From an uncultured Spirochaetota bacterium (lineage in GTDB: Bacteria > Spirochaetota > Brevinematia > Brevinematales > JAOACQ01), in the NCBI GenBank assembly GCA_963835575.1, contig CAWIGG010000006.1:101151-165150 (forward strand): a stretch of DNA of 64,000 nt, read 5' to 3'. Within the stretch, counting starts at the first letter, position 1, and each line of letters starts with the position of its first letter. This document shows positions 2,306 to 64,000 of the stretch, one piece after another. A program made the translations under genes and the position numbers. The notes under the pieces were generated by a model. That model worked only from the letters and a program-made list of their open reading frames with translations, made no database searches and was not told the DNA's origin.

Positions 2306-2696
2306 TCAGGGCAAAAGTTAATAACCAAAGAGATGTGAATTTCACCAAGAAGAACGGACCAATTTTTCCTGGTGCCGCTTCAATATTGAATCTTCCGCTA
2401 AGCCGCGCGAAGTCACGCCAATAATTAAAAAGTATTCTTGAAAAATTAATAATTTCACACAGGGCCCACAGAGTTCGCGGAGCTATAATAAAGATTAACT
2501 TGAAAACTCTGTGTCCTCTGTGAACTCTGTATGAAAAACAAATACCAATCTATCCTTCTTTTACTAATAGTTGGAAATCCATTCCGCGCAGCAGATGTTG
2601 CTGTTGGAAAGATTGGTCCCGTACATTGCGATAATATTATCGTAAATCGCTTTTGCCGCGGCAGAAGAATTATGGTATGGGCACAGGCAGATCCCT

Positions 2697-6652: not shown

Positions 6653-7204
6653 AACCACAGATTACACAGATGTCACAGATGATAATTTTGAAAGTATCAG
6701 TGTAATTATGCTATAATTGTGAATATGAAAAAAGAAGAAAGTAAAGATCGTCGGGCTTATGGGATTATTGGTGCGGCTATTGAGGCACACAAAGAATTAG
6801 GATCAGGATATCTGGAAGCAGTATATTAGGAAAGCCTTGAATTAGAATTTAAACTCAGAAAAATCCCTTATATATCTCACCCCATTCTTAAGGTTTTTTA
6901 TAAAGATATTGAACTGAAAAAATATTATGTGCCTGATTTTATCGTATATAATGAAGTGATTCTGGAAATTAAAGCGGAAAGATGTTTGACGAGAGTAGAT
7001 GAGGCGCAAATAATAAACAGTTTAAAGAATTCGGGAATGAAAGTAGGTTTGCCGATTAATTTTGGTGAAAGCTCATTAAAATTCAAACGTTTTGTTTACT
7101 GAAACATATTTCATATTTCGTTTATTGTTAATAGAATGAATTCGAATTGAGATTTAATATTGATACCACAGAAATAATCTGTGAAATCAGTGAAATCTGT
7201 GGTT
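6653..7204. repeat. inverted-repeat-bracketed cassette carrying a GxxExxY ORF (CACAGAT-word arms)
   Basis: The left arm is AACCACAGATTACACAGATGTCACAGATG (6653-6681). The right arm at 7176-7204 reverse-complements to AACCACAGATTTCACTGATTTCACAGATT, matching at about 25/29 positions. Confidence 0.7.
6725..7102 (+). pseudogene. GxxExxY protein (PD-(D/E)XK-like) with in-frame TAG
   Basis: The translation MKKEESKDRRAYGIIGAAIEAHKELGSGYLEAVY*ESLELEFKL...PDFIVYNEVILEIKA... is collinear with the intact paralog at 11561-11962. The TAG at 6827-6829 sits where the paralog has CAG (EAVYQEAL). This gene is absent from the ORF track. Confidence 0.8.
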
Positions 7205-11505: not shown

Positions 11506-11520
11506 AGGGAACTGGGTTAT

Positions 11521-11992
11521 CCGCTAAGCCACGCCAAGGAACGCTAAGAAGAATATATAATTGGTAAAAAAAATGGCTGAAGATTTATTATTTAAGGAAG
11601 AAGTTTTTAAAATCATGGGTTGTGCTATGAAAGTGCAGGATGAGTTAGGGAACGGTTTTCTGGAAGCGGTTTATCAGGAAGCTTTAGAAATTGAATTAAA
11701 GCTCATGCAAATCCCTTTTGAATCTCAGAAAAGACTGAGAATTAATTATAAAGGACAGCTGCTTCAAAAAGAATATATTGCCGATTTAATATGCTTTGAC
11801 AAAATAATATTGGAATTGAAAGTTGAAGAGAAGCTGACTTCTATTGATGAAGCTCAGATTTTAAATTATTTGAAAGTTACGGGTTTATCGCTTGGACTCA
11901 TTATAAATTTCGGATCAAAGAAGAAACTTGAGTGGAAACGTTTTGCAAACACTCAACAATAACCTTAGCGTATCTTCGCGATCCTTAGCGGG
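11521..11992. repeat. inverted-repeat-bracketed cassette carrying a GxxExxY ORF (CGCTAAG-word arms)
   Basis: The left arm is CCGCTAAGCCACGCCAAGGAACGCTAAGAAG (11521-11551). The right arm at 11963-11992 reverse-complements to CCGCTAAGGATCGCGAAGATACGCTAAGG. Confidence 0.7.
11561..11962 (+). CDS. GxxExxY protein (PD-(D/E)XK nuclease-like family)
   Basis: Contains LGNGFLEAVYQEALEIEL (the GxxExxY motif) and ADLICFDKIILELKV (a D...ExK-like motif). The start is either TTG at 11561 or ATG at 11573. Confidence 0.85.
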   Translation: MVKKMAEDLLFKEEVFKIMGCAMKVQDELGNGFLEAVYQEALEIELKLMQIPFESQKRLRINYKGQLLQKEYIADLICFDKIILELKVEEKLTSIDEAQILNYLKVTGLSLGLIINFGSKKKLEWKRFANTQQ

Positions 11993-12025
11993 AGCCCCGA
12001 AAGTGTTATAGGGAAGGAGTTGTTT

Positions 12026-13750
12026 ATGAAAAGATTTTTTATATTTATATTTCTGTTTCTTTCAATATCCCTTTCTTACGGCGAATATTTCAGCATTAAA
12101 GATTACAATATCCATGTCAAAGTCCTGAAAGACGGTGTACTGGACATTAACGAAAGAATTTCCGTCACTTTTACCGAGCCCAGGCATGGTATTTTCAGGG
12201 ATATTCCATACGGCTATACTATCACAAAGGCGCAAGGAGGCGAATCGGCCGAATATCCACTTCTTTTCGGGGATCGATATCAGGACCTTCTTTATGACAT
12301 TTCGGTCCAGAACTTTCATTATCAGGTGGAAAAAAACAATGCCATGATCCGCATCCGGATCGGTTCCAAAAACGCTTATGTGGAGGGCGACCAGGTTTAT
12401 ATTATCAATTATAAAGTTTATGGAGAGGTCCGGAGATTCAACGATTATTCCGTAATTTACTGGAACCTGACCGGCAATGAATGGCCGGTTGAAATAGATT
12501 ATGCGGTGTTCTCAATGGAACTGCCTTCCTCAGTCCCGTTAAGCTCAAAGGATTATAGAATTTATTCCGGGGTATACGGCTCGAAGGAAAACGACGCCTG
12601 CTATTATAAATATGAAGCGGATGAGCTTTCCGGAAGGACAATCCGGGCTTTAAATCCGAATGAGGGAATAACCGCCTGGATCAAGCTTCCGAAGGATTAT
12701 TTTGTAAAAAATGATATACTGGACAAACTTTTATGGCTTCAGAACAACTCGGGGCTGTTCGCTATCATTATACCTTTTTTAGTGCTGATCATCGCGTTTC
12801 TGGTCTGGAACAAATACGGGCGCGATGTAAAGATCGTGAAAATGGTCCAGTTCAAACCGCCGGAAGATATGACGCCTGCGGAGGCGGGGGTCATCATCGA
12901 TGATGTGACGGATAACAGGGATGTTCTGTGCCTGATCTATTACTGGGCGGCGGCCGGGTATCTGGAAATAGAAGAGCTGGAGAAGGGGACGCTCTTCAAA
13001 TCAAAAGACTTCAAATTGATTAAAAAGAAAGAACTGCCGGACAACGCTAAAGAATACGAGAAAACCATGTTCAATGGGCTTTTTGAGGGAAAAGAGACGG
13101 AAGTCCTGATCAGTTCGCTCAAAGACACTTTTTATACGACTTTCGACAGCGTTAAAAGCCAGCTCAATGATTATATCGGCAGTCAGGCTTTTTATACGCC
13201 GGGTTCGCGCGGCCTCCGCGCTCTCTTTATATTCCTTGCCATGGTCTTTGTTTTCGGCGGATTTTTCCTGACGTTTTTTGCCGGATGGAGCGCTCTTTAT
13301 ATCGCTTCGGGTATTGTATCGGCGGTCATTTTAATTATTTTCGGGATTTATATGCCAAAGAAGACAGCTAAAGGCCTTGAGAAATACAAAGTCCTTGAAG
13401 GTTTCAAACTTTTTATTGAAAAGGCTGAAAAGCCGAAGCTCGAGGCCCTTATGAAAGAAGACCCGAATTATTTTGACAGGACGCTTTCCTATGCCATAGC
13501 GTTCGGAATGGGCGATAAATGGGCCGCGAAATTCGCCGGCATTATCACGCAGCCGCCTTCGTGGTACCATGGGCACAGCTTTACCGCTTTCTCCACGGCG
13601 TATTTTATCAGCTCGCTGAACTCGAGCATCTCCGGTATGAGCTCGACGATGACATCCCGCCCTTCCAGCAGCGGCTCAAGCGGCGGCGGCGGATTTTCCG
13701 GCGGAGGAGGCGGGGGCGGGGGCGGGGGCGGGGGCGGAGGCAGCTGGTAG
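12026..13750 (+). CDS. DUF2207 domain-containing membrane protein with poly-Gly tail
   Basis: GGAAGGAG SD 6 nt before the ATG at 12026. It has a signal peptide, a large N-terminal domain, several TM helices, and the C-terminus SSGSSGGGGFSGGGGGGGGGGGGGGSW. This family is the usual genomic partner of LemA. Confidence 0.8.
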   Translation: MKRFFIFIFLFLSISLSYGEYFSIKDYNIHVKVLKDGVLDINERISVTFTEPRHGIFRDIPYGYTITKAQGGESAEYPLLFGDRYQDLLYDISVQNFHYQVEKNNAMIRIRIGSKNAYVEGDQVYIINYKVYGEVRRFNDYSVIYWNLTGNEWPVEIDYAVFSMELPSSVPLSSKDYRIYSGVYGSKENDACYYKYEADELSGRTIRALNPNEGITAWIKLPKDYFVKNDILDKLLWLQNNSGLFAIIIPFLVLIIAFLVWNKYGRDVKIVKMVQFKPPEDMTPAEAGVIIDDVTDNRDVLCLIYYWAAAGYLEIEELEKGTLFKSKDFKLIKKKELPDNAKEYEKTMFNGLFEGKETEVLISSLKDTFYTTFDSVKSQLNDYIGSQAFYTPGSRGLRALFIFLAMVFVFGGFFLTFFAGWSALYIASGIVSAVILIIFGIYMPKKTAKGLEKYKVLEGFKLFIEKAEKPKLEALMKEDPNYFDRTLSYAIAFGMGDKWAAKFAGIITQPPSWYHGHSFTAFSTAYFISSLNSSISGMSSTMTSRPSSSGSSGGGGFSGGGGGGGGGGGGGGSW

Positions 13751-13901
13751 AAAGAAATAATTCACAGGAAGGCGGGAAGACGGGAAGACGGGAAGGTTTT
13801 TAATGATTTATTTATTTTCATTGCCGTTCAAGTTATAAATTTATTAAACTGTGATTTGCTAGAAATTTGAAAGAACCGGAATTTCACACAGAGTGCACAG
13901 A

Positions 13902-15602
13902 CAGACTGTGTGAAAAAGGCGGTGTAAGACAATAAAGGCGGAGAAAAATCCTCAAATTTATTTTAATAAGGTATAATATGTAATCAAATTTGAGGTGTGT
14001 AAGATGAACCATATAACAGGAGAGCCAAGAGACCAGATAGTACTTTACGCGGAAACTATTGATGGTTTGATAGAAGAGAAGAACCCTGTAAGAATTATAG
14101 ACGCATATGTGAGCAGACTAAACATCAGGAGGTTGGGATTCAAAATTAAAGAGGCGAAAAAAGGGCGTCCATCCTACACAGCGGATGTATTGTTGAAAAT
14201 ATATATTTACGGATATTTGAACAAAGTCAGGACCACGAGGAAATTAGAAAACGAATGTAAAAGGAATACGGAACTGATATGGCTGACCTGCCGCTTAGCG
14301 CCTGATTTTAAGACCATAGCGGATTTCAGAAGGGATAATATTAAGGGCATAAAAAACATTTTCAAAGAGTTTTTGAAAGTATGCCGCAAATTAGAACTGC
14401 TGACATTTAAATTAACAGCGACAGATGGAACGAAAATAAGTGGGCAAAACAGTCTGGGTAATATTTATAGGCGGGAAAGCATTGAAGGAGTTGAGAAAAA
14501 GATTAATGAAAAAATAGACAAATATCTTTTGGAATTGGATAAAAATGATAAATCGGAAGAAAACGAGTTTGAGTTTTTATCCAGCAACATTGAAAAAAAG
14601 CTGGACAGCCTCAAGACAAGAAAAGAAAAAGTAGAAGCGATAAAAAAAATGTTTGAGGCCGATCCGGAACTTGAAATCGTTTACGGGAATGATCCCGACG
14701 GCAGAATTGGGAAAGATAAAGGGAAAACGGATGTTTTGTACAACGCGCAGATAGCAGTGGACGAAAAGAATAAATTGATTGTCGCGGTGGATGTAACCAA
14801 TGAAAGTAATGATGTTCATCAAGCGGGAAATATGGTTAATAAAGTTGAAGAAATAAAGAAAGAACTTGAAGCCGAACCGGGATTAAAAACCATACATGTC
14901 CTGGATGCCGGATATTATTGCGAAAGTGAGATATTACCGCTTACAGACGGGGGTCATGAAATCTATATTCCAAGCCCGCGCGATGAAAAAGAAAAAAAGT
15001 CCAGGTACAAAGAGCAGCAGAAAGAAAGTATCCCGGCAAAAGGATATCTGGCAGAAGATTTCAAGATTGATAAAGAGAAGAACCAGTTGATTTGTCCGCA
15101 AGGATTACGATTAAATAATCAAAGTGTATATCAGGATAAAAACACGGGGATTACTGTAGCGGAATTCAAGTGCAGGAACGAGAATTGTGAGAAGAAGCAT
15201 TTATGCACAAAAAGCAAAGAAGGCAGGACGGTAAAGTTATCGGTGCGAAAGGAAGATATGGATAAATTCGATGAGAAGGTCCGAAGTGAATTGGGGCAAA
15301 AGATTGTTGCAATCAGAAAAGAGTTGGCAGAACATCCATTTGGAACAATAAAAGGAAATTTTGGTTATAATAATTTCTTGCTGAAGGGGATTGATAAAGT
15401 AAAAAGCGAGTTTAATTTCACGGCATTTATCTATAATTTTAAAAGAGTTCTGAATATTGCTGGTTTTGATAAGTTATTAGCCGCAATATAGTCTGAATTT
15501 CAATGATTATCAGTAATTTTTTATTCAGGCTCTTCTTTAAAGTAAGCAGGAACCTTTAGATGCCTGATCTTATAAATGTATTCTCTTTTTTCACACAGTC
15601 TG
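13902..15602 (+). mobile_element. IS1182-family insertion sequence (~1.7 kb)
   Basis: 16-bp terminal inverted repeat CAGACTGTGTGAAAAA (13902-13917, and complement of 15587-15602) flanking a single transposase ORF. AGA is present on both flanks and may be a 3-bp duplication. Confidence 0.75.
14004..15491 (+). CDS. IS1182-family DDE transposase
   Basis: The N-terminus PVRIIDAYV...GRPSYTADVLLKIYIYGYLNKVRTTRKLENECKRNTELIWL...PDFKTIADFRRDN is the InsH-N/DUF772 type. The C-terminus HPFGTIKGNFGYNNFLLKGIDKV is also characteristic. GAGGTG SD before the ATG at 14004. Confidence 0.8.
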   Translation: MNHITGEPRDQIVLYAETIDGLIEEKNPVRIIDAYVSRLNIRRLGFKIKEAKKGRPSYTADVLLKIYIYGYLNKVRTTRKLENECKRNTELIWLTCRLAPDFKTIADFRRDNIKGIKNIFKEFLKVCRKLELLTFKLTATDGTKISGQNSLGNIYRRESIEGVEKKINEKIDKYLLELDKNDKSEENEFEFLSSNIEKKLDSLKTRKEKVEAIKKMFEADPELEIVYGNDPDGRIGKDKGKTDVLYNAQIAVDEKNKLIVAVDVTNESNDVHQAGNMVNKVEEIKKELEAEPGLKTIHVLDAGYYCESEILPLTDGGHEIYIPSPRDEKEKKSRYKEQQKESIPAKGYLAEDFKIDKEKNQLICPQGLRLNNQSVYQDKNTGITVAEFKCRNENCEKKHLCTKSKEGRTVKLSVRKEDMDKFDEKVRSELGQKIVAIRKELAEHPFGTIKGNFGYNNFLLKGIDKVKSEFNFTAFIYNFKRVLNIAGFDKLLAAI

Positions 15603-15817
15603 AGAGAGCACAGAGTAAGCTATAATTCTTTATCTGCATAAGATTAAACAATATCCCTTTGTACTCCGTGTTCTCTGTGCGGGAAAAATAATTTTTTAGG
15701 ATTCTGAAACATTATTTTTTTGCTGTCTAAATTGCAATTTCAAATCTGGAAATTAAATTTTATTTCTAAAATCTCCAGATTTTTCTTCGTGTCTTCCCGC
15801 CTTCCTGTAAAACCCGT

Positions 15818-16213
15818 CTATTTTTCTTCGACCTTTTTTATGATGATGTAAATTCCCGCTCCGATGATCAGCTCGGTAAAGAGAAGAAGGAGCCAGTTCA
15901 GGAGCGCCGGATAGCTTCCGGGAAGGCCCACGGCGAATTTCGAGAGAATAATGCGGGCAATCCAGAAGATCAGGATAATGTACATTGAGGTCCGGAGAAG
16001 CTTCTTATCGACGGCGGTAAACATGCTGACAAGCAGTATGATGCCGGCGAAAAGCTCCACAATACCGAAGATCACTTCAAGGGCCAGGGTGTATCTGAGC
16101 GTGAAATAACTTTCCTCAATGCCTGGAATGATCCCCAGGAGCCCTAATATCAGAAAGAACACCGCGATGAGAAAAATGAGAAGGTTGATGGGAGTGACTT
16201 TGTGTTTAGCCAT
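15818..16213 (-). CDS. small integral membrane protein (about 4 TM)
   Basis: 131-aa hydrophobic ORF with an AGGAGG SD 6 nt upstream, lying directly downstream of the ATPase gene. Confidence 0.6.
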   Translation of the reverse strand: MAKHKVTPINLLIFLIAVFFLILGLLGIIPGIEESYFTLRYTLALEVIFGIVELFAGIILLVSMFTAVDKKLLRTSMYIILIFWIARIILSKFAVGLPGSYPALLNWLLLLFTELIIGAGIYIIIKKVEEK

Positions 16214-23700: not shown

Positions 23701-23808
23701 ACAGGAAGACGGGAAGATACAGAGATCAATTTATGACAAACCGCCTTATTCCTTCCCGCCCCTTCAATGCGCTGCGCTTACTCAGGACATCGCTTCCCTT
23801 CTTCCTGT
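23701..23808. repeat. GGAAGACGGGAAG-word inverted repeat, empty
   Basis: ACAGGAAGACGGGAAG (23701-23716) versus CTTCCCTTCTTCCTGT (23793-23808), matching 15/16. A third arm-like copy, TTCCTTCCCGCC, lies at about 23749-23760. The word family is the same as at 13764/15808. Confidence 0.75.
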
Positions 23809-23870
23809 TAAATGTTGTAAAGCGGGCAAAAATATAATGGATATTCTTAACTTAATAATAACTAATATTC

Positions 23871-25390
23871 GTAACTATCCAGCCACTAAAAAATAGTCAC
23901 ATGAAATATTTGCATTGAGCATGAAACCATGCTATTCTATAGCATGAATGAAGATAGAAGAGAAAAAGACTGTGCGGCCTGCTTAAAACGATTTGAAGGC
24001 ATCATTGCTGATTTACAAAACCAGATAAAGGAGCAGGGTTTAATCATTCAAAGACAAGCGGAAAAGATTAAGAAATTGGAAGAACAGCTTAATAAGGACA
24101 GCCATAACAGCAATAAACCGCCGTCTTCCGATAATCCATTCCAAAATACAGTAAAGAATTTACGGAAAAAGAGCGGTAAAAAACAAGGCGGCCAGTTTGG
24201 ACATAAGGGAAATACTCTGAAGAAAGTAGAAAGCCCTGATAAGATCATAGAACATCAGGTTGAAAAATGTTCCTGTTGTGGAATTGATTTAAGTTCCGAA
24301 TCAGTTAAGCGGACGGAAAGAAGGCAGGTGTTCGATATACCTCCGATAAAAGTGGAAGTTACCGAACATCGCTCGGAAGTAAAAGATTGTCCGCATTGCG
24401 GTGCGAGAGTAACGGCGGAGTTTCCGGAAGGCATAACCAATAAGGCACAGTATGGAAAAAACATTAAAGCGCATCTGGTCTATATGAAAACATATGGGTT
24501 GATACCCTATGAAAGGCTTTCGGAATACGCCGAATGTTTATTGGGAGTGCCGCTCAGCAAGGCAACGATTGAAGGATTTATCCGGGAGACCTACAATAAA
24601 TTAGAAGAGTATGAACAGAAAGTCATAGAACTGATACTAAAAGAAGTGGTTCTTCACTGTGATGAAACCGGTATTCGGATAAAAGGGTTATTAAAATGGC
24701 TCCATGTTGCCTCGAATGAACGTTTTACCTATTATTTTTCTCATGACAAACGCGGCACAGAGGCGATGCGTGCGATGGACATTCTCACAAGATTTACCGG
24801 TATTATTATCCACGATGGATGGAAAAGTTATCTGGAATTCTTATGCCGTCATGGATTGTGTAATGTACACCATTTGAGAGAGCTAATCTGGATACATGAG
24901 GAAATGGGTCAGGAATGGGCTAAGGAGATGGGTAATCTTCTTATAAGGATTAAGAATGATAAAGAGGCAAGTTTTCCAATACCGGCGGAAAGGATTATAG
25001 AATATGATACGGAATATGACCGGATCATCGCGAAAGGATTTGCTGTAAATCCAACGCCTGAAAAGCCGGAAGGACTTGTTAAACGCGGCAGAAAAAAGCG
25101 GGGCAAGGTTTTATGCCTATTAGACCGATTAAGAAAATATAAAGAATCTGTCCTTTTATTTATGCGGGAAAAAGATGTTCCATTCAGCAACAATTTGGCG
25201 GAACGGGATATCAGAATGATAAAAGTCCAGCAGAAAATATCAGGTACATTCAGAAGCTGGAATGGAGCGGCTGCCTTTTGCAGAATCAGGGGTTATATAT
25301 CTACAGTAAAAAAGATGGGCGTCAGTGTTTATCAAGCCCTTATTGACGCGTTGAACGGCTCCGCTATTAAATATGCGGCTGGATAGTTAC
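23871..25390 (+). mobile_element. IS66-family insertion sequence (single-ORF type), intact
   Basis: Perfect 14-bp TIR GTAACTATCCAGCC (23871-23884, and complement of 25377-25390). An 8-bp direct target duplication TAATATTC lies at 23863-23870 and 25391-25398. A GTAA terminus and an 8-bp TSD are IS66 hallmarks. Confidence 0.9.
23929..25386 (+). CDS. IS66-family transposase
   Basis: Leucine-zipper N-terminus, CPHCG zinc finger, HCDETG, WLHVA, IIHDGWKSY, CNVHHLREL and PFSNNLAERDIRMIKVQQKISGTFRS. The stop codon lies inside the right TIR. Confidence 0.9.
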   Translation: MLFYSMNEDRREKDCAACLKRFEGIIADLQNQIKEQGLIIQRQAEKIKKLEEQLNKDSHNSNKPPSSDNPFQNTVKNLRKKSGKKQGGQFGHKGNTLKKVESPDKIIEHQVEKCSCCGIDLSSESVKRTERRQVFDIPPIKVEVTEHRSEVKDCPHCGARVTAEFPEGITNKAQYGKNIKAHLVYMKTYGLIPYERLSEYAECLLGVPLSKATIEGFIRETYNKLEEYEQKVIELILKEVVLHCDETGIRIKGLLKWLHVASNERFTYYFSHDKRGTEAMRAMDILTRFTGIIIHDGWKSYLEFLCRHGLCNVHHLRELIWIHEEMGQEWAKEMGNLLIRIKNDKEASFPIPAERIIEYDTEYDRIIAKGFAVNPTPEKPEGLVKRGRKKRGKVLCLLDRLRKYKESVLLFMREKDVPFSNNLAERDIRMIKVQQKISGTFRSWNGAAAFCRIRGYISTVKKMGVSVYQALIDALNGSAIKYAAG

Positions 25391-51311: not shown

Positions 51312-51523
51312 TTAAGGGCAGTTCCAAAAACTCAAAATCAATCAGATATTTCCAACATAGGTTTTGGAACTGCCCCGGTTATAGAACCTCTTGTAAATTT
51401 AATTGCCGCTACCGTATAGAGTTCGCTGGTTGATGATCTTTTCAGACAGCGAACTCGGGCGGTAGCATGAACTCATATAATAGCGGCAGTTCTAAATATT
51501 TGAGTTTTTAGAACTGCCCTTAA
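51312..51523. repeat. MITE-like element: 25-bp terminal inverted repeats flanked by TTAA, three internal hairpins
   Basis: TTAAGGGCAGTTCCAAAAACTCAAA (51312-51336) versus TTTGAGTTTTTAGAACTGCCCTTAA (51499-51523), matching 24/25. Extra GGCAGTTC copies lie at about 51366 and 51485. The central IR is GCCGCTACCGTATAGAGTTCGCTG (51405-51428) versus CAGCGAACTCGGGCGGTAGC (51447-51466). Confidence 0.7.
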
Positions 51524-51583: not shown

Positions 51584-53425
51584 TGTCTATAAAAAAAGCG
51601 CTAAAAGTTTTAATATTTTGATATTATTTCTTGAAAAAAACAGATAAAATATATTTTTAAATAATTTCATTTATTTGACCTGTATTCCGGTATTATATAT
51701 AGAGAGAAACAAGAGAGTTATTTATGGGGATTAAGGCTTTATCCGATTCTGCCGCGGATGACGGTTTCTCTCCGGCAGGCTTTTCCTCCTATTTTCATGA
51801 GAAATGCGATAAACCTGCCGTTGCCTTTGGGGCGAACGGCAGGTGTTTTTTTCTCCTCTCCTTGTTGCCTGTCGGTTTTTATAACATGCTTCATGGACAT
51901 ACGGCAGGGTTCCCGTTAAAATAAAACGGGAGAAAAAGATGGCAAGATTTGAAAAGAACAGCCTGGAGCAGGGTGAGTTCCTCGCGATCAATATAGGCGA
52001 GCAGTTTGATGAGAATTCCAGAGAATTTATACTAAAAGAATTCATCAAAAACCGTATTAAACTGGAGGATTTCGCGGCTTACTATAAGAACAACCATAGA
52101 GGCAGAGAGATTAAAAATCCTCGGGATGTGATCTGTGCGGTACTCTACGGTTACATTACGGGAAATCGTATCAGCCGAAAGATAGAAGATTTGCTGAAAA
52201 AACACATTGGGTTTATGTATGTTTCAAACCGGCTGAAAATTGACCATTCGGTAATTTGCGAGTTCAAGGTACTTTTTCAGGAAAAGATCGAGGAGTTGTT
52301 CAGCCAGCTTTTATATATACTCAACGAAATGGGGTCTATAGATTGGGACATGGTAGTGGGTGACGGCACAAAGATCAAGGCCTACGCGAGTAAGAATAAG
52401 AATGTGGGAAAGAAACATACCCGGAAGCTGATGGACACTTACCAGAAGATGGCGGAAAAGATTGTGAAACAAGACCTGGAACTGGAAGAATCTTACCGGG
52501 AAGGCAAGCTGGAGCAGCCTTATTACGAAGCGGAGAAGAAGCGGGTATCAAGGCGGAAAAAGATTTACGATAGTGTTTTGAACCAAATCGATGAATACAA
52601 AAAACAGGTAGAGAGAGGGGAAAAGACAGACGAAGAATTCACCAACCTGACTGATCCCGAAAGCAAGCTGATGTCTGGAAATCCGCATAGTGTGTTTATA
52701 CAGGGATATAATTCGGCGATGATGGTCAGTAATAATGATGTGATTATAGATTTTGAAGCAATCACAACACCGGAAAAACAGCATACGGAAGAAATGGTAA
52801 AGAGGGTGGAACAGAAAAAAGCGGAATTAAAAGTTGATAAGGCTAGCAAATACCTTTTTGATTCGGGTTTTCAGGACATGGAAGAGACAATCCGGATGGT
52901 GGAGGAAGGAAAAGACCTTTATGTGGATACGAAAGAGCGGGATTTCAGTGATAAATCACAGAAGCGAAGAGACTTTAAACTGGAAAAGATTGATGACGAA
53001 TATATCCTGGGATGCCGGGGCGGCCGTAAGGAAAATGGGTATTTAGATCGAAATAACCAAAGATATACATTTTTGTATTCACGGAAGGGCTGTGAAAGAT
53101 GTCCATTTTTCAGTGAGTGTTATAAAAACATCAAACCGAAAACACAGCAAAAGACAGTAATTTTCAGTGAGTTTGAATTGAATAATCGGTCTAAGATTGA
53201 TGCTTATTTAACAAAACTTTACAGCGAAGAAGGGCAAAAGATATACAACCGCAGGATAGGTAAAGAACACGTATTTTCAAACATCAAAACACAGAAGGGT
53301 TATGTTCAGACAGTTTACAGAGGTCAACGGAAAGTGAATTTGGAGCTATGCTGGGTATCCCTTGCGCATAATTTTATGAAATATGCCCAATATTTGAGAA
53401 AATAGAGAGGATTTTGTATAGTCTG
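51584..53425 (+). mobile_element. second IS1182-like element (right end clear, left end tentative)
   Basis: The right terminus TTTTGTATAGTCTG (53412-53425) reverse-complements to CAGACTATACAAAA, resembling the CAGACTGTGTGAAAAA terminus of the first element. Only a weak left match exists (GTGTCTATAAAAAA at about 51584). Confidence 0.4.
51939..53405 (+). CDS. IS1182/IS5-like DDE transposase
   Basis: The N-terminal DUF772-like region has ICAVLYGYITGNRISRKIEDLL...YVSNRLKIDHSVICEF. A Cys-rich segment follows (CERCPFFSECY). The C-terminus is HVFSNIKTQKGYVQTVYRGQRKVNLELCWVSLAHNFMKY. Confidence 0.75.
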   Translation: MARFEKNSLEQGEFLAINIGEQFDENSREFILKEFIKNRIKLEDFAAYYKNNHRGREIKNPRDVICAVLYGYITGNRISRKIEDLLKKHIGFMYVSNRLKIDHSVICEFKVLFQEKIEELFSQLLYILNEMGSIDWDMVVGDGTKIKAYASKNKNVGKKHTRKLMDTYQKMAEKIVKQDLELEESYREGKLEQPYYEAEKKRVSRRKKIYDSVLNQIDEYKKQVERGEKTDEEFTNLTDPESKLMSGNPHSVFIQGYNSAMMVSNNDVIIDFEAITTPEKQHTEEMVKRVEQKKAELKVDKASKYLFDSGFQDMEETIRMVEEGKDLYVDTKERDFSDKSQKRRDFKLEKIDDEYILGCRGGRKENGYLDRNNQRYTFLYSRKGCERCPFFSECYKNIKPKTQQKTVIFSEFELNNRSKIDAYLTKLYSEEGQKIYNRRIGKEHVFSNIKTQKGYVQTVYRGQRKVNLELCWVSLAHNFMKYAQYLRK

Positions 53426-53851
53426 AGTATCGATTATTCGAAATTTATTATTAAAATCAGCTAAGCTGACAAAATTTTTATTTGCCCGCTTATTGTAAGG
53501 GGCTGGTTTGACTCCGAAAATGAAATAACCGACAGGCAAGCCGGAAAAAAGAGGCTGTATTATAAAGATCCTGATAGACCAGAAGATAATTATGCCGGTC
53601 AGAAGCGCCTTCCCGATCTGAGAGGTTAAAAGCTCTTTTGAGTAAAAGAAAGGTAAATAGGCGAAGATCAGCCAGAATAATAAAACGGAGAAGTTTGACG
53701 TATTTAATAACTGCTTTATGACTCTTTTTTTGATGGCTGGCAGTTCTTTCAGATTTTCATCCCAATTGAACGTTTTTGGGAATATAATATGGGATAGAGC
53801 GCAGATCAAATGAAAAACGCCCCCGATTTTTATTAATAGTTCATTGGGCAT
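53324..53851 (-). CDS. small membrane protein whose 3' end reads into the IS terminus
   Basis: The hydrophobic ORF has about 4 TM segments within residues 1-115. The last ~34 codons (53324-53425) are encoded by IS sequence. Confidence 0.5.
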   Translation of the reverse strand: MPNELLIKIGGVFHLICALSHIIFPKTFNWDENLKELPAIKKRVIKQLLNTSNFSVLLFWLIFAYLPFFYSKELLTSQIGKALLTGIIIFWSIRIFIIQPLFSGLPVGYFIFGVKPAPYNKRANKNFVSLADFNNKFRIIDTQTIQNPLYFLKYWAYFIKLCARDTQHSSKFTFR

Positions 53852-63779: not shown

Positions 63780-64000
63780 TCACCTGTGCTTCGTCACCCC
63801 GATCTTCGGGCAGTATGTTTCAACAGGGCATTCGGAGCAAAGCGGCGATACCGGCCTGCAGATCGTCTGGCCGAAGGCGACAAGGATGTCGTTATACTCG
63901 ATCCACCATTCCAGGGGCAGTTTTTCACGCAGTCTGAATTCAGTTTCATCCGGCCATTTCGTTTTGACATAACCCCAGCGGTTTGATATCCGGTGTACAT
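63780..64000 (-). CDS. nth: endonuclease III, C-terminal part (5' end outside window)
   Basis: Minus-strand translation: ...[66 protein letters not shown]. It carries the [4Fe-4S] loop C-x6-C-x2-C-x5-C. The TGA stop is at 63780-63782. It is missing from the ORF track because no start codon lies inside the window. Confidence 0.85.

What the first reader, a model, noticed from the sequence alone, without database searches (positions are those of the whole stretch)
13764..15808. IS1182-family element inserted into the inner arm of a two-layer palindromic module
The convergent spacer between DUF2207 and the small membrane-protein gene is bounded by a perfect 18-bp IR, ACAGGAAGGCGGGAAGAC / GTCTTCCCGCCTTCCTGT. 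Inside it lies a CACAGAG-word IR pair. The 1.7-kb IS (TIR CAGACTGTGTGAAAAA) interrupts the left CACAGAG arm, giving ...CACACAGAGTGCACAGA|IS|AGAGAGCACAGAG.... The IS terminus itself (CAGACTGTGTG) resembles the CACAGAG word in reverse complement. This suggests either target preference for these palindromes or an evolutionary link between the IS ends and the words.
Basis: partly seen in the sequence, partly recalled or inferred. Interest (0 to 1): 0.55.

Follow-up and report, generated by a model that had tools for sequence, protein, structure and literature searches.

The report
IS1182 element targeting CACAGAG hairpin repeats
An intact IS1182-family jumping gene sits, with a 3-bp duplication, at one exact position inside a repeated 'CACAGAG' hairpin module; relatives in seven other metagenomic contigs sit at the same position of the same kind of word, so the insertion is target-directed, which is a known kind of behaviour with a new target.

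Summary
There is a perfect 18-bp outer inverted repeat, an inner inverted array of CACAGAG words, and a 1,701-bp IS with 16-bp perfect terminal repeats that splits the left inner arm.

The IS belongs to the IS1182 family by the curated NCBIfam cut-off. It made a 3-bp duplication (AGA). Removing the IS and one AGA restores three tandem words: CACAGAG-TG-CACAGAG-AG-CACAGAG.

Target preference is strongly supported. Relatives with 47-92% identical transposases, on seven unrelated metagenomic contigs, lie at the same register, CAC[NNN]|G, usually in the second word of such arrays. Other lineages with the same IS terminus each hit their own host repeat, again with 3-bp duplications.

The proposed evolutionary link between IS ends and words is not supported. 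The terminus is conserved in relatives whose targets are unrelated, and the shared motif lies inside-out in the modules.

The modules are segmented hairpins: 7-bp helices separated by 2-nt loops. The same architecture brackets GxxExxY (PD-(D/E)XK) genes in this window and in 6 of 6 viral contigs tested. The 'two layers' are one gene-less module nested inside another.

Copies of this IS elsewhere in the source genome could not be retrieved.

The parts
12020..13750 (+). DUF2207-family membrane protein gene, left neighbour; convergent with the gene on the right
   Evidence: Pfam DUF2207 (3e-24) and DUF2207_C (2e-33)
13764..13795 (+). Outer module, left arm: tandem 8-nt words ACAGGAAG GCGGGAAG ACGGGAAG ACGGGAAG. 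The perfect 18-bp repeat is 13764-13781.
   Evidence: (D2, I1)
13878..13898 (+). Inner module, left border GGAATTTCA, word 1 (CACAGAG, 13887-13893), spacer TG and the first three bases (CAC) of word 2
   Evidence: The same border GGAATTTCAC is seen in L097.
13899..13901 (.). Left copy of the 3-bp target-site duplication AGA
   Evidence: Empty-site reconstruction. 3-bp duplications in relatives.
13902..15602 (+). IS1182-family insertion sequence, 1,701 bp
   Evidence: (I3). Boundaries confirmed where flanks diverge in more than 30 related copies.
13902..13917 (+). Left terminal inverted repeat CAGACTGTGTGAAAAA
14004..15491 (+). Transposase gene, 495 aa. ATG preceded by GAGGTG. Intact reading frame.
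   Evidence: Pfam DUF772 + DDE_Tnp_1 + DDE_Tnp_1_6. NCBIfam NF033551, 318.8 bits against a cut-off of 270. Identical to P0121.
15587..15602 (-). Right terminal inverted repeat
15603..15605 (.). Right copy of the 3-bp target-site duplication AGA
15606..15615 (+). Last base (G) of word 2, spacer AG and word 3 (CACAGAG, 15609-15615) of the inner left arm
15616..15654 (+). Loop of the inner module. It contains GCTATAAT (15619-15626) and AGATTAAAC, both shared with module 2453-2536.
15655..15679 (+). Inner module, right arm: inverted words CCCTTTG TA CTCCGTG TT CTCTGTG
   Evidence: Pairs with the left arm in the reconstructed empty site.
15785..15808 (+). Outer module, right arm: CTTCGTGT CTTCCCGC CTTCCTGT. 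The perfect 18-bp repeat is 15791-15808.
15818..16213 (-). Small membrane-protein gene (131 aa), right neighbour
   Evidence: No Pfam or NCBIfam match.
2453..2536 (+). Comparator: an intact gene-less CACAGAG module. Left arm CACAGGG CC CACAGAG TT CGCGGAG, loop with GCTATAAT, right arm CTCTGTG TC CTCTGTG AA CTCTGTA. It offers unoccupied potential targets.
6656..7201 (+). Comparator: cassette with CACAGAT word arms (6656-6682 and 7176-7201) around an internal promoter-like site and a GxxExxY pseudogene (6725-7102, in-frame TAG)
11520..11993 (+). Comparator: cassette with GCTAAG-type word arms around an intact GxxExxY gene (11573-11962), lying between the LemA and DUF2207 genes

Best explanation
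A complete and probably still active IS1182-family insertion sequence transposed into the middle CACAGAG word of the left arm of a gene-less 'segmented hairpin' module. It has a DDE transposase and 16-bp terminal inverted repeats.

Insertion followed the usual staggered-cut route and duplicated 3 bp: CAC[AGA]G became CAC AGA|IS|AGA G.

The site was selected, not random. This IS clade recognises the register CAC-NNN-G of a word that follows another word, in tandem arrays of period 9. It inserts in either orientation and in either arm.

The module belongs to a repeat family built of three 7-bp helices separated by 2-nt internal loops. In the same genome and elsewhere, this architecture brackets small GxxExxY (PD-(D/E)XK) genes. 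The 'two-layer' structure is one gene-less module (CACAGAG words) nested in the centre of another (GGGAAG words), and the outer one fills the whole convergent spacer.

Shown directly: the anatomy, the duplication, family membership, recurrence of the same register in independent loci, and the hairpin potential.

Inferred: that the transposase itself reads the word, possibly helped by extrusion of the stem. Two relatives carry the left arm on one side and the right arm on the other, with the hairpin tip missing. A 3-bp staggered cut across an extruded stem would give that result.
For: Family and integrity:
- (Pfam architecture; NCBIfam above cut-off).
- D141, D301 and E443 are invariant among 29 relatives.
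- identical or 1-aa-different copies exist on other contigs.

Duplication and empty site:
-.
- 3-bp duplications are exact in most of the 31 distinct related copies examined.

Recurrence of the register (transposase identity to the window in brackets; L110/L111 and L118/L119 carry the P0107 and P0120 transposases, about 49% identical to the window's):
- L097 (92%): IS|TCCGTG AC CTCCGTG GTGAAATTCC. Same border as the window but opposite IS orientation.
- L001 (70%): CACAGAG AT CACAGA|IS|TCCGTG.
- L096 (47%): CACAGAG G CACAGAG GT CAC[AGA]|IS|[AGA]G CC CACAGAG. Only its left junction was required by the search pattern.
- L110: C[TTT]|IS|[TCT]GTG, in the middle word of a right arm.
- L111: CAC[AAA]|IS|[TTT]GTG.
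- L119: CACTGAG CG CAC[AAA]|IS|[AGA]G TA CACAGAG, then a loop and three inverted words.
- L118: C[TCA]|IS|[AGA]G.
- For L097, L001 and L096, flanking genes and flank sequences are unrelated to the window.

Other lineages with the same terminus each use one host repeat:
- About 17 copies in a Spirochaetota MAG lie at the tip of the hairpin CCCTGAGC[NNN]ACGAAGGG.
- 10 copies in a Leptospiraceae genome lie at GC[TSA]GC.

Module architecture. L096's array is the 3' arm of a GxxExxY gene. In 6 of 6 viral-contig loci the GxxExxY gene is bracketed by inverted word arrays, scoring 16-27 against a shuffled maximum of 11-12.

Literature: IS1272/TnSha1 of this family integrate into hairpin stems (PMC4923244, PMC5678879).
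Against: - No other copy of this exact IS in its own genome could be examined, so the preference rests on relatives.
- L096 was found with a pattern that required the left junction, which is ascertainment bias for that half.
- Most supporting contigs are short metagenomic assemblies. Repeats can be mis-joined there; L097 is chimeric upstream.
- Relatives intermediate in identity (54-65%) use different targets. The shared CACNNNG target of the 47% and 100% lineages therefore needs either an ancient specificity lost in between or convergence.
- Five potential target sites exist in the window and only one is occupied.
- No experiment shows that the transposase reads the word.
Confidence: 0.85

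Rival explanations
1. Structure-only targeting, as described for IS1272/TnSha1. The transposase recognises any extruded hairpin or cruciform stem, and the CACAGAG sequence and register are incidental.
For: - The family precedent reports no primary-sequence specificity (PMC4923244 and PMC5678879).
- The target lies in a hairpin stem.
- L001 and L111 look like stem cuts with loss of the hairpin tip.
- The IS of the Spirochaetota MAG also sits in a hairpin.
Against: - Eight of eight events share the same base register, CAC[NNN]|G, and mostly the same (second) word.
- The window, L096, L110 and L119 have ordinary direct duplications within a single arm, which is not how a cut across a stem would look.
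- Each related lineage has its own sequence-defined site.
- Hairpin arms made of other words in this window (CACAGAT, GCTAAG, GGGAAG) carry no insertion. This is weak evidence, since the sample is small.
Confidence: 0.08
2. Evolutionary link. The word modules derive from this IS's ends, for example as relics of abutted right-end/left-end junctions or as inside-out MITEs. The association would then reflect common descent or end mimicry.
For: - TTTCACACAG is shared by the IS ends and by both module borders in the window.
- The 8-mer TCACACAG of the conserved repeat core occurs outside the IS only at the two module borders. It also occurs in the module borders of L110 and L111.
- L002 shows a right-end-CTA-left-end junction, which is itself a palindrome.
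- L119 has an IS-end-like sequence abutting a module border.
Against: - The orientation is opposite to that of an IS or MITE end. A genuine MITE with outward-facing ends exists in L104 and looks different.
- The same terminus is kept by relatives whose targets share nothing with it.
- Modules with quite different words (GCTAAG, GGGAAG, GATGAAC, CGCAGAA) have the same architecture, so the architecture does not depend on IS-like sequence.
- An 8-mer match to a 12-nt core is expected in about 2% of 110-nt modules by chance (my estimate).
Confidence: 0.05
3. Chance insertion into an AT-rich intergenic spacer that happens to contain repeats.
For: - Only one copy is visible in the window.
- Intergenic insertions are the ones that survive selection.
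Against: About 12 register positions exist in 64 kb, so one random hit has a probability of about 2e-4. Six further events, found without reference to their flanks (L001, L097, L110, L111, L118, L119), fall in the same register.
Confidence: 0.02

Closest known systems
IS1272 / TnSha1 (IS1182 family, staphylococci)
   Same: - Same IS family and the same Pfam architecture.
- Integrates into the stems of hairpin-forming inverted repeats, often downstream of genes.
- Some relatives here (L001, L111) show the same outcome: an IS flanked by the two arms, with the hairpin tip lost.
   Different: - IS1272 is reported to make no target duplication, to delete part of the target, and to have no primary-sequence specificity (PMC4923244, PMC5678879).
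- The window IS made a clean 3-bp duplication within a single arm.
- Its clade hits a fixed base register of a defined word.
REP-targeting insertion sequences (IS1397, ISKpn1, ISPsy8 of IS3; IS621, ISPpu9, ISPpu10, ISPa11 of IS110; also IS4, IS256 and IS5 members; PMC1525189)
   Same: IS copies sit at a fixed position inside a host-specific, repeated, palindromic extragenic element. The specificity is lineage-specific.
   Different: - A different transposase family. IS1182 is not among the five families listed in PMC1525189.
- The target is not a short GC-rich REP. It is a tandem array of 7-nt words that forms a segmented stem.
REPIN/RAYT systems ('REPtrons'): a nuclease gene flanked by inverted REPs, plus many gene-less REP doublets. 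This is a comparison for the module, not for the IS.
   Same: A small nuclease-superfamily gene is bracketed by inverted repeats, and gene-less hairpin copies of the same architecture lie elsewhere in the genome.
   Different: - The gene is a GxxExxY PD-(D/E)XK protein, not a Y1/HUH transposase.
- Each cassette has its own word sequence rather than one genome-wide REP.
- Mobility is not shown.
MITEs derived from an IS
   Same: Short, gene-less, inverted-repeat-bounded and repeated. A true MITE of this IS clade exists in L104.
   Different: The window modules carry the IS-like motif facing inward, share only 8-10 nt with the IS end, and show no flanking 3-bp duplication.

Membership tests
IS1182 family | Transposase matches the curated family model above its trusted cut-off | tested here: met
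   NCBIfam NF033551, 318.8 bits against a cut-off of 270. The IS5 model scores only 67 bits against 140.
IS1182 family | Domain architecture: N-terminal DUF772, then DDE_Tnp_1, then C-terminal DDE_Tnp_1_6 | tested here: met
   Pfam hits at 7e-17, 2e-8 and 2e-18, in that order
IS1182 family | Single transposase ORF, terminal inverted repeats, length within the family range (about 1.3-1.95 kb; the range is recalled from ISfinder and Siguier 2015) | tested here: met
   1,701 bp, one 495-aa ORF, 16-bp perfect terminal repeats
IS1182 family | Conserved DDE catalytic residues | tested here: inconclusive
   D141, D301 and E443 are invariant in 29 relatives. Calling them the catalytic triad is inference; no structure or mutagenesis is available.
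IS1182 family | Demonstrated transposition | not testable with these tools
   Only indirect evidence: near-identical copies on other contigs and a clean duplication.
Repeat-targeting (REP-type) insertion sequences | Most copies lie at the same position of one repeated host element | tested here: met
   8 of 8 junction sets in the CACNNNG-targeting lineages share the register. About 17 copies in a Spirochaetota MAG lie in one hairpin. Copies in the window's own genome could not be retrieved.
Repeat-targeting (REP-type) insertion sequences | The target element is itself a multi-copy palindromic extragenic repeat in the host | tested here: met
   There are two CACAGAG modules and three further word-array modules in 64 kb.
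IS1272-type hairpin-replacing insertion | Insertion into the stem of a hairpin-forming inverted repeat | tested here: met
   The target word is in the middle helix of the reconstructed hairpin
IS1272-type hairpin-replacing insertion | No target duplication; part of the target deleted | tested here: not met
   The window has an AGA/AGA duplication and both halves of the same arm are present. The pattern is seen only in relatives L001 and L111.
IS1272-type hairpin-replacing insertion | No primary-sequence specificity | tested here: not met
   Fixed register CAC[NNN]|G in all events
IS-derived MITE (for the palindromic module) | Module termini equal the IS terminal repeats, facing outward, and are flanked by the IS's own duplication | tested here: not met
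   The shared TTTCACACAG faces inward. No 3-bp direct repeat flanks the modules. Compare the true MITE in L104.
GxxExxY (TIGR04256 / PDDEXK_3) cassette with word-array arms (for the palindromic module) | Inverted arrays of tandem 7-9-nt words bracketing a GxxExxY gene | tested here: inconclusive
   The architecture is the same as cassettes 6656-7201 and 11520-11993 and as 6 of 6 viral loci. However, the module hit by the IS and the outer module contain no gene. Only the GCTATAAT box is shared.

The most novel reading that the evidence does not exclude
The segmented-hairpin modules are the ends of an undescribed class of small mobile cassettes. Their arms are tandem 7-9-nt words with short spacers, inverted at the two ends, with an internal promoter-like box. 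Their gene is the GxxExxY PD-(D/E)XK nuclease. Gene-less modules would be non-autonomous derivatives, analogous to REPINs and RAYTs, and module-in-module nesting would produce the 'two layers'. The IS1182 clade found here would then be a specialised parasite of those arms. It would read a word register and sometimes cut across the extruded stem, which would tie the unexplained 'hairpin-replacing' behaviour of IS1272 to a defined substrate.
Probability: 0.2. Interest if true: 0.75.

Novelty: new member of a known kind. Interest (0 to 1): 0.42.

Why it matters
- It gives the IS1182 family a sequence-defined, recurrent target: CAC[NNN]G in tandem words. Two outcomes are visible at that one site, an ordinary 3-bp duplication and a junction of the two arms with the hairpin tip lost. 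Until now hairpin targeting in this family has been described as structure-only and without duplication. A defined substrate makes the mechanism testable in vitro.
- It shows that the palindromic modules scattered through this genome belong to a widespread architecture that brackets GxxExxY genes. I found no description of this in the searchable literature.
- For annotation, the locus is an ordinary intergenic IS insertion that disrupts a repeat hairpin, not a gene.

Tried and rejected
- Exact-sequence look-ups of the window transposase with either start, of its 1-aa variant P0001 and of the identical P0121 found nothing on record. Same-genome copies could therefore not be mapped.
- The first genome-contig scan, with the single protein, found no relative. 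The scan with an alignment worked.
- The near-match to the IS terminal repeat at 63921-63936 looks like a chance hit inside what appears to be coding sequence, not a second IS end.
- The hairpin-loop motif used by the Spirochaetota-MAG relative (TGAGC..CGAAG) is absent from the window, so that target type is host-specific.
- Rfam gives no family anywhere in the window at gathering thresholds.
- I considered that the words are part of a longer IS. I rejected this because the window, L096, L110 and L119 have direct, not inverted, continuation of the array on the far side, and because other lineages lack the words.
- I considered that L097 is the orthologous locus with an inverted IS. I rejected this because its neighbouring genes have no similarity to the window.
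- A 10-mer statistic for resemblance between the IS end and the module is inflated by the A-run of the terminus. I replaced it with a test on the conserved 12-nt core.
- I spent the single metagenome scan on the junction pattern. It gave one very informative locus, but it is a biased sample.
Full report
**1. The observation**

The region reads exactly as described.
- The convergent spacer between the DUF2207 gene (12020-13750, +) and a small membrane-protein gene (15818-16213, -) begins and ends with a perfect 18-bp inverted repeat, at 13764-13781 and 15791-15808. Chance expects 0.01 matches. The repeat extends to 28 nt at 89%.
- Inside lies a 1,701-bp element, 13902-15602, with perfect 16-bp terminal inverted repeats CAGACTGTGTGAAAAA.
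- It carries one intact 495-aa ORF, 14004-15491, preceded by GAGGTG.
- The junctions are ...TTTCACACAGAGTGCACAGA|IS|AGAGAGCACAGAGTAAGCTATAAT....
- CACAGAG is over-represented in the window: 9 matches against 2.1 expected. The two-word pattern gives 15 against 1.4.

**2. What the IS is**

- The protein has the DUF772 / DDE_Tnp_1 / DDE_Tnp_1_6 architecture.
- It scores 318.8 bits on NCBIfam NF033551 (IS1182 family; cut-off 270), against 67 bits on the IS5 model.
- D141, D301 and E443 are invariant among 29 relatives.
- An identical protein (P0121) and a 1-aa variant (P0001) are on record from other contigs, so the element is probably multi-copy and recently active. Those contigs could not be fetched.

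**3. Duplication and empty site**

AGA occurs on both sides of the IS, at 13899-13901 and 15603-15605. Removing the IS and one AGA gives CACAGAG-TG-CACAGAG-AG-CACAGAG: three tandem words of period 9, with the IS in the middle word.

A 3-bp duplication is the rule in the clade. It is exact in most of the 31 distinct related copies reconstructed, and off by one base in most of the rest.

**4. Is the site chosen?**

All relatives down to 47% identity keep the terminus CAGACTGTGTGA...TCACACAGTCTG, so IS boundaries can be read unambiguously. Seven further junction sets from seven different samples lie in CAC[NNN]G words at the same register.

| Locus | Transposase identity to the window | Junction |
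|---|---|---|
| L097 | 92% | IS\|TCCGTG AC CTCCGTG GTGAAATTCC. Reverse-complemented, this is GGAATTTCAC CACGGAG GT CACGGA\|IS, the same border as window 13878-13887. The other IS end is adjacent, and neighbouring genes are unrelated. |
| L001 | 70% | CACAGAG AT CACAGA\|IS\|TCCGTG... |
| L096 | 47% | CACAGAG G CACAGAG GT CAC[AGA]\|IS\|[AGA]G CC CACAGAG ATTTTATAAT |
| L110 | about 49% (P0107) | three words, an 18-nt loop, then CTTTGTG AT C[TTT]\|IS\|[TCT]GTG AC CTCTGTG |
| L111 | about 49% (P0107) | CACAGAG GT CAC[AAA]\|IS\|[TTT]GTG CC CTCTGTG |
| L119 | about 49% (P0120) | CACTGAG CG CAC[AAA]\|IS\|[AGA]G TA CACAGAG, then a loop with TATAAT and three inverted words. This is the same layout as the window. 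|
| L118 | about 49% (P0120) | CTCCGTG CC C[TCA]\|IS\|[AGA]G TT CACGGAG |

- Only L096 was found through its left junction. The others were found through the protein.
- Both IS orientations and both arms occur, and the second word from the border is usual.
- With about 12 such positions in 64 kb, random insertion is excluded.

**5. Other lineages**

| Host or IS lineage | Identity to the window | Copies examined | Target |
|---|---|---|---|
| Spirochaetota MAG MFD01476.bin.3.353 | 54% | about 17 | Tip of one repeated hairpin, stem-CCCTGAGC[YTG]ACGAAGGG-stem; the stems vary |
| A 55% relative (P0004 lineage) | 55% | 2 | TTCGG[CTG]GCTCACCACAAG |
| Leptospiraceae genome | 47% | 10 | GC[TGA/TCA]GC |

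Site specificity for a host repeat is therefore general in the clade, but the sequence read differs between lineages. This argues that the conserved terminus is not what defines the target.

**6. The 'evolutionary link'**

- The word shares only CACAG with the terminus.
- The longer match, TTTCACACAG, is between the terminus and the module border plus its first word.
- The 8-mer TCACACAG of the conserved core occurs outside the IS only at the two module borders. It also occurs in the module borders of L110 and L111.
- It faces inward, the opposite of an IS or MITE end. A genuine MITE with outward-facing ends is seen in L104.
- A match of that length is expected in about 2% of modules by chance (my estimate).
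- I therefore treat end mimicry as an open but minor possibility.

**7. What the palindromic module is**

Folding shows stacks of 7-bp helices separated by 2 x 2-nt internal loops, each word pairing with its inverted partner. The same architecture, with different words, brackets two GxxExxY genes in the window:
- 11573-11962: Pfam PDDEXK_3 at 1e-40 and TIGR04256 at 4e-42, with GCTAAG-type words.
- 6725-7102: a pseudogene with an in-frame TAG and CACAGAT words.

Further points:
- In each, a TATAAT box follows the left array. The gene-less modules, 2453-2536 and the one hit by the IS, keep GCTATAAT.
- In L096 the targeted array is the 3' arm of a GxxExxY gene.
- In 6 of 6 GxxExxY loci from viral contigs, the gene is bracketed by inverted arrays of tandem 8-9-nt words (GATGAAC, AATGAAA, ACACGAA, CGCAGAA...). 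They score 16-27 against a shuffled maximum of 11-12.
- The outer layer here, built of 8-nt units containing GGGAAG, has the same construction. The locus is therefore a gene-less module nested in the middle of another gene-less module that abuts both stop codons.
- No Rfam family matches. I found no paper describing this architecture.

**8. Mechanism**

- Shown: an ordinary transposition product with a 3-bp duplication in one arm.
- Inferred: the transposase reads CAC-NNN-G in the context of a preceding word.
- L001 and L111 carry the left arm on one side and the right arm on the other, with the triplets inverted (AAA / TTT). A 3-bp staggered cut across an extruded stem would give this. So would recombination between two IS copies, one in each arm.
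- This resembles the stem integration with tip deletion reported for IS1272/TnSha1 of the same family (PMC4923244, PMC5678879).
- PMC4923244 also notes that Siguier et al. 2015 record palindrome targeting by some IS1182 members.

**9. Comparison and novelty**

- Repeat-targeted insertion sequences are well known in the IS3, IS110, IS4, IS256 and IS5 families (PMC1525189). Hairpin targeting is known in IS1182. This is a new member of that kind.
- It differs from IS1272 in two ways: it makes a duplication, and it has a fixed sequence register.
- The more unusual item is the target itself, the word-array hairpins around GxxExxY genes.
- The host is probably a member of Spirochaetota. This is judged only from where the IS relatives and the closest named GxxExxY homologue occur, and it was not tested.

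**10. Verdict**

- Target preference is supported; the evolutionary link is not.
- The locus is an ordinary intergenic insertion by a site-specific IS.
- Moderate interest (0.42). There is a separate lead of higher potential in the cassette architecture.

Noticed in passing
window 6656-7201 and 11520-11993; loci L112-L117: GxxExxY (PD-(D/E)XK, TIGR04256) genes are bracketed by inverted arrays of tandem 7-9-nt words, with a different word in each cassette and a TATAAT box after the left array. One copy in the window is a pseudogene with an in-frame TAG. The same holds in 6 of 6 viral-contig loci. I found no description of this in the searchable literature.
   Followed up: partly
window 23701-23810 and 23929-25386: Another word-array palindrome (ACAGGAAG ACGGGAAG ... 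CTTCCCTTCTTCCTGT), related to the outer arms of the finding, lies just upstream of an IS66-family transposase gene (Pfam DDE_Tnp_IS66, 5e-47). The ends of that IS were not defined.
   Followed up: no
window 51852-53552 and 51312-51523: A second, distant IS1182-like element. Its transposase (51939-53405) is 25% identical to the first and scores 212 bits on NF033551, below the cut-off. Its imperfect 29-nt terminal repeats are at 51852-51880 and 53524-53552. About 330 bp upstream is a nested set of palindromes, including a 25-nt repeat at 96%.
   Followed up: partly
L104 159-267: A MITE of about 108 bp with the same terminal repeats (CAGGCTGTGTGAAAAG...TTTCCACACAGTCTG) and a TGA duplication. It sits immediately next to a full IS copy in the Leptospiraceae genome GCA_024233835.1.
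   Followed up: no
L002 55-95: A head-to-tail junction, right end-CTA-left end, of a 65%-identical relative. The same CTA also follows the downstream right end. This is either tandem copies reusing one target or an assembled circle junction.
   Followed up: no
L006-L022 (Spirochaetota MAG MFD01476.bin.3.353): The host repeat targeted there is a hairpin with a conserved loop (TGAGC-NNN-ACGAA) and variable stems (GCCTGCCC/GGGGCACGC, GTCACCC/GGGTGAC, TTGCCC/GGGCAA). It looks REP-like. A Y1_Tnp (PF01797) gene lies near one copy (L014). A similar hairpin lies uninterrupted beside the IS in L001.
   Followed up: partly
L119 925-961: A solitary IS-end-like sequence, CAGATTGTGTGAAAAG, abuts the outer border of the word array that carries a full IS 36 bp further on. 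It recalls the tandem left-end duplications reported for IS1272.
   Followed up: no
window 13694-13747: The DUF2207 protein ends in a run of about 18 glycines, encoded by a GGCGGG hexamer repeat of 5.5 copies. The repeat lies directly before the outer palindrome arm.
   Followed up: no
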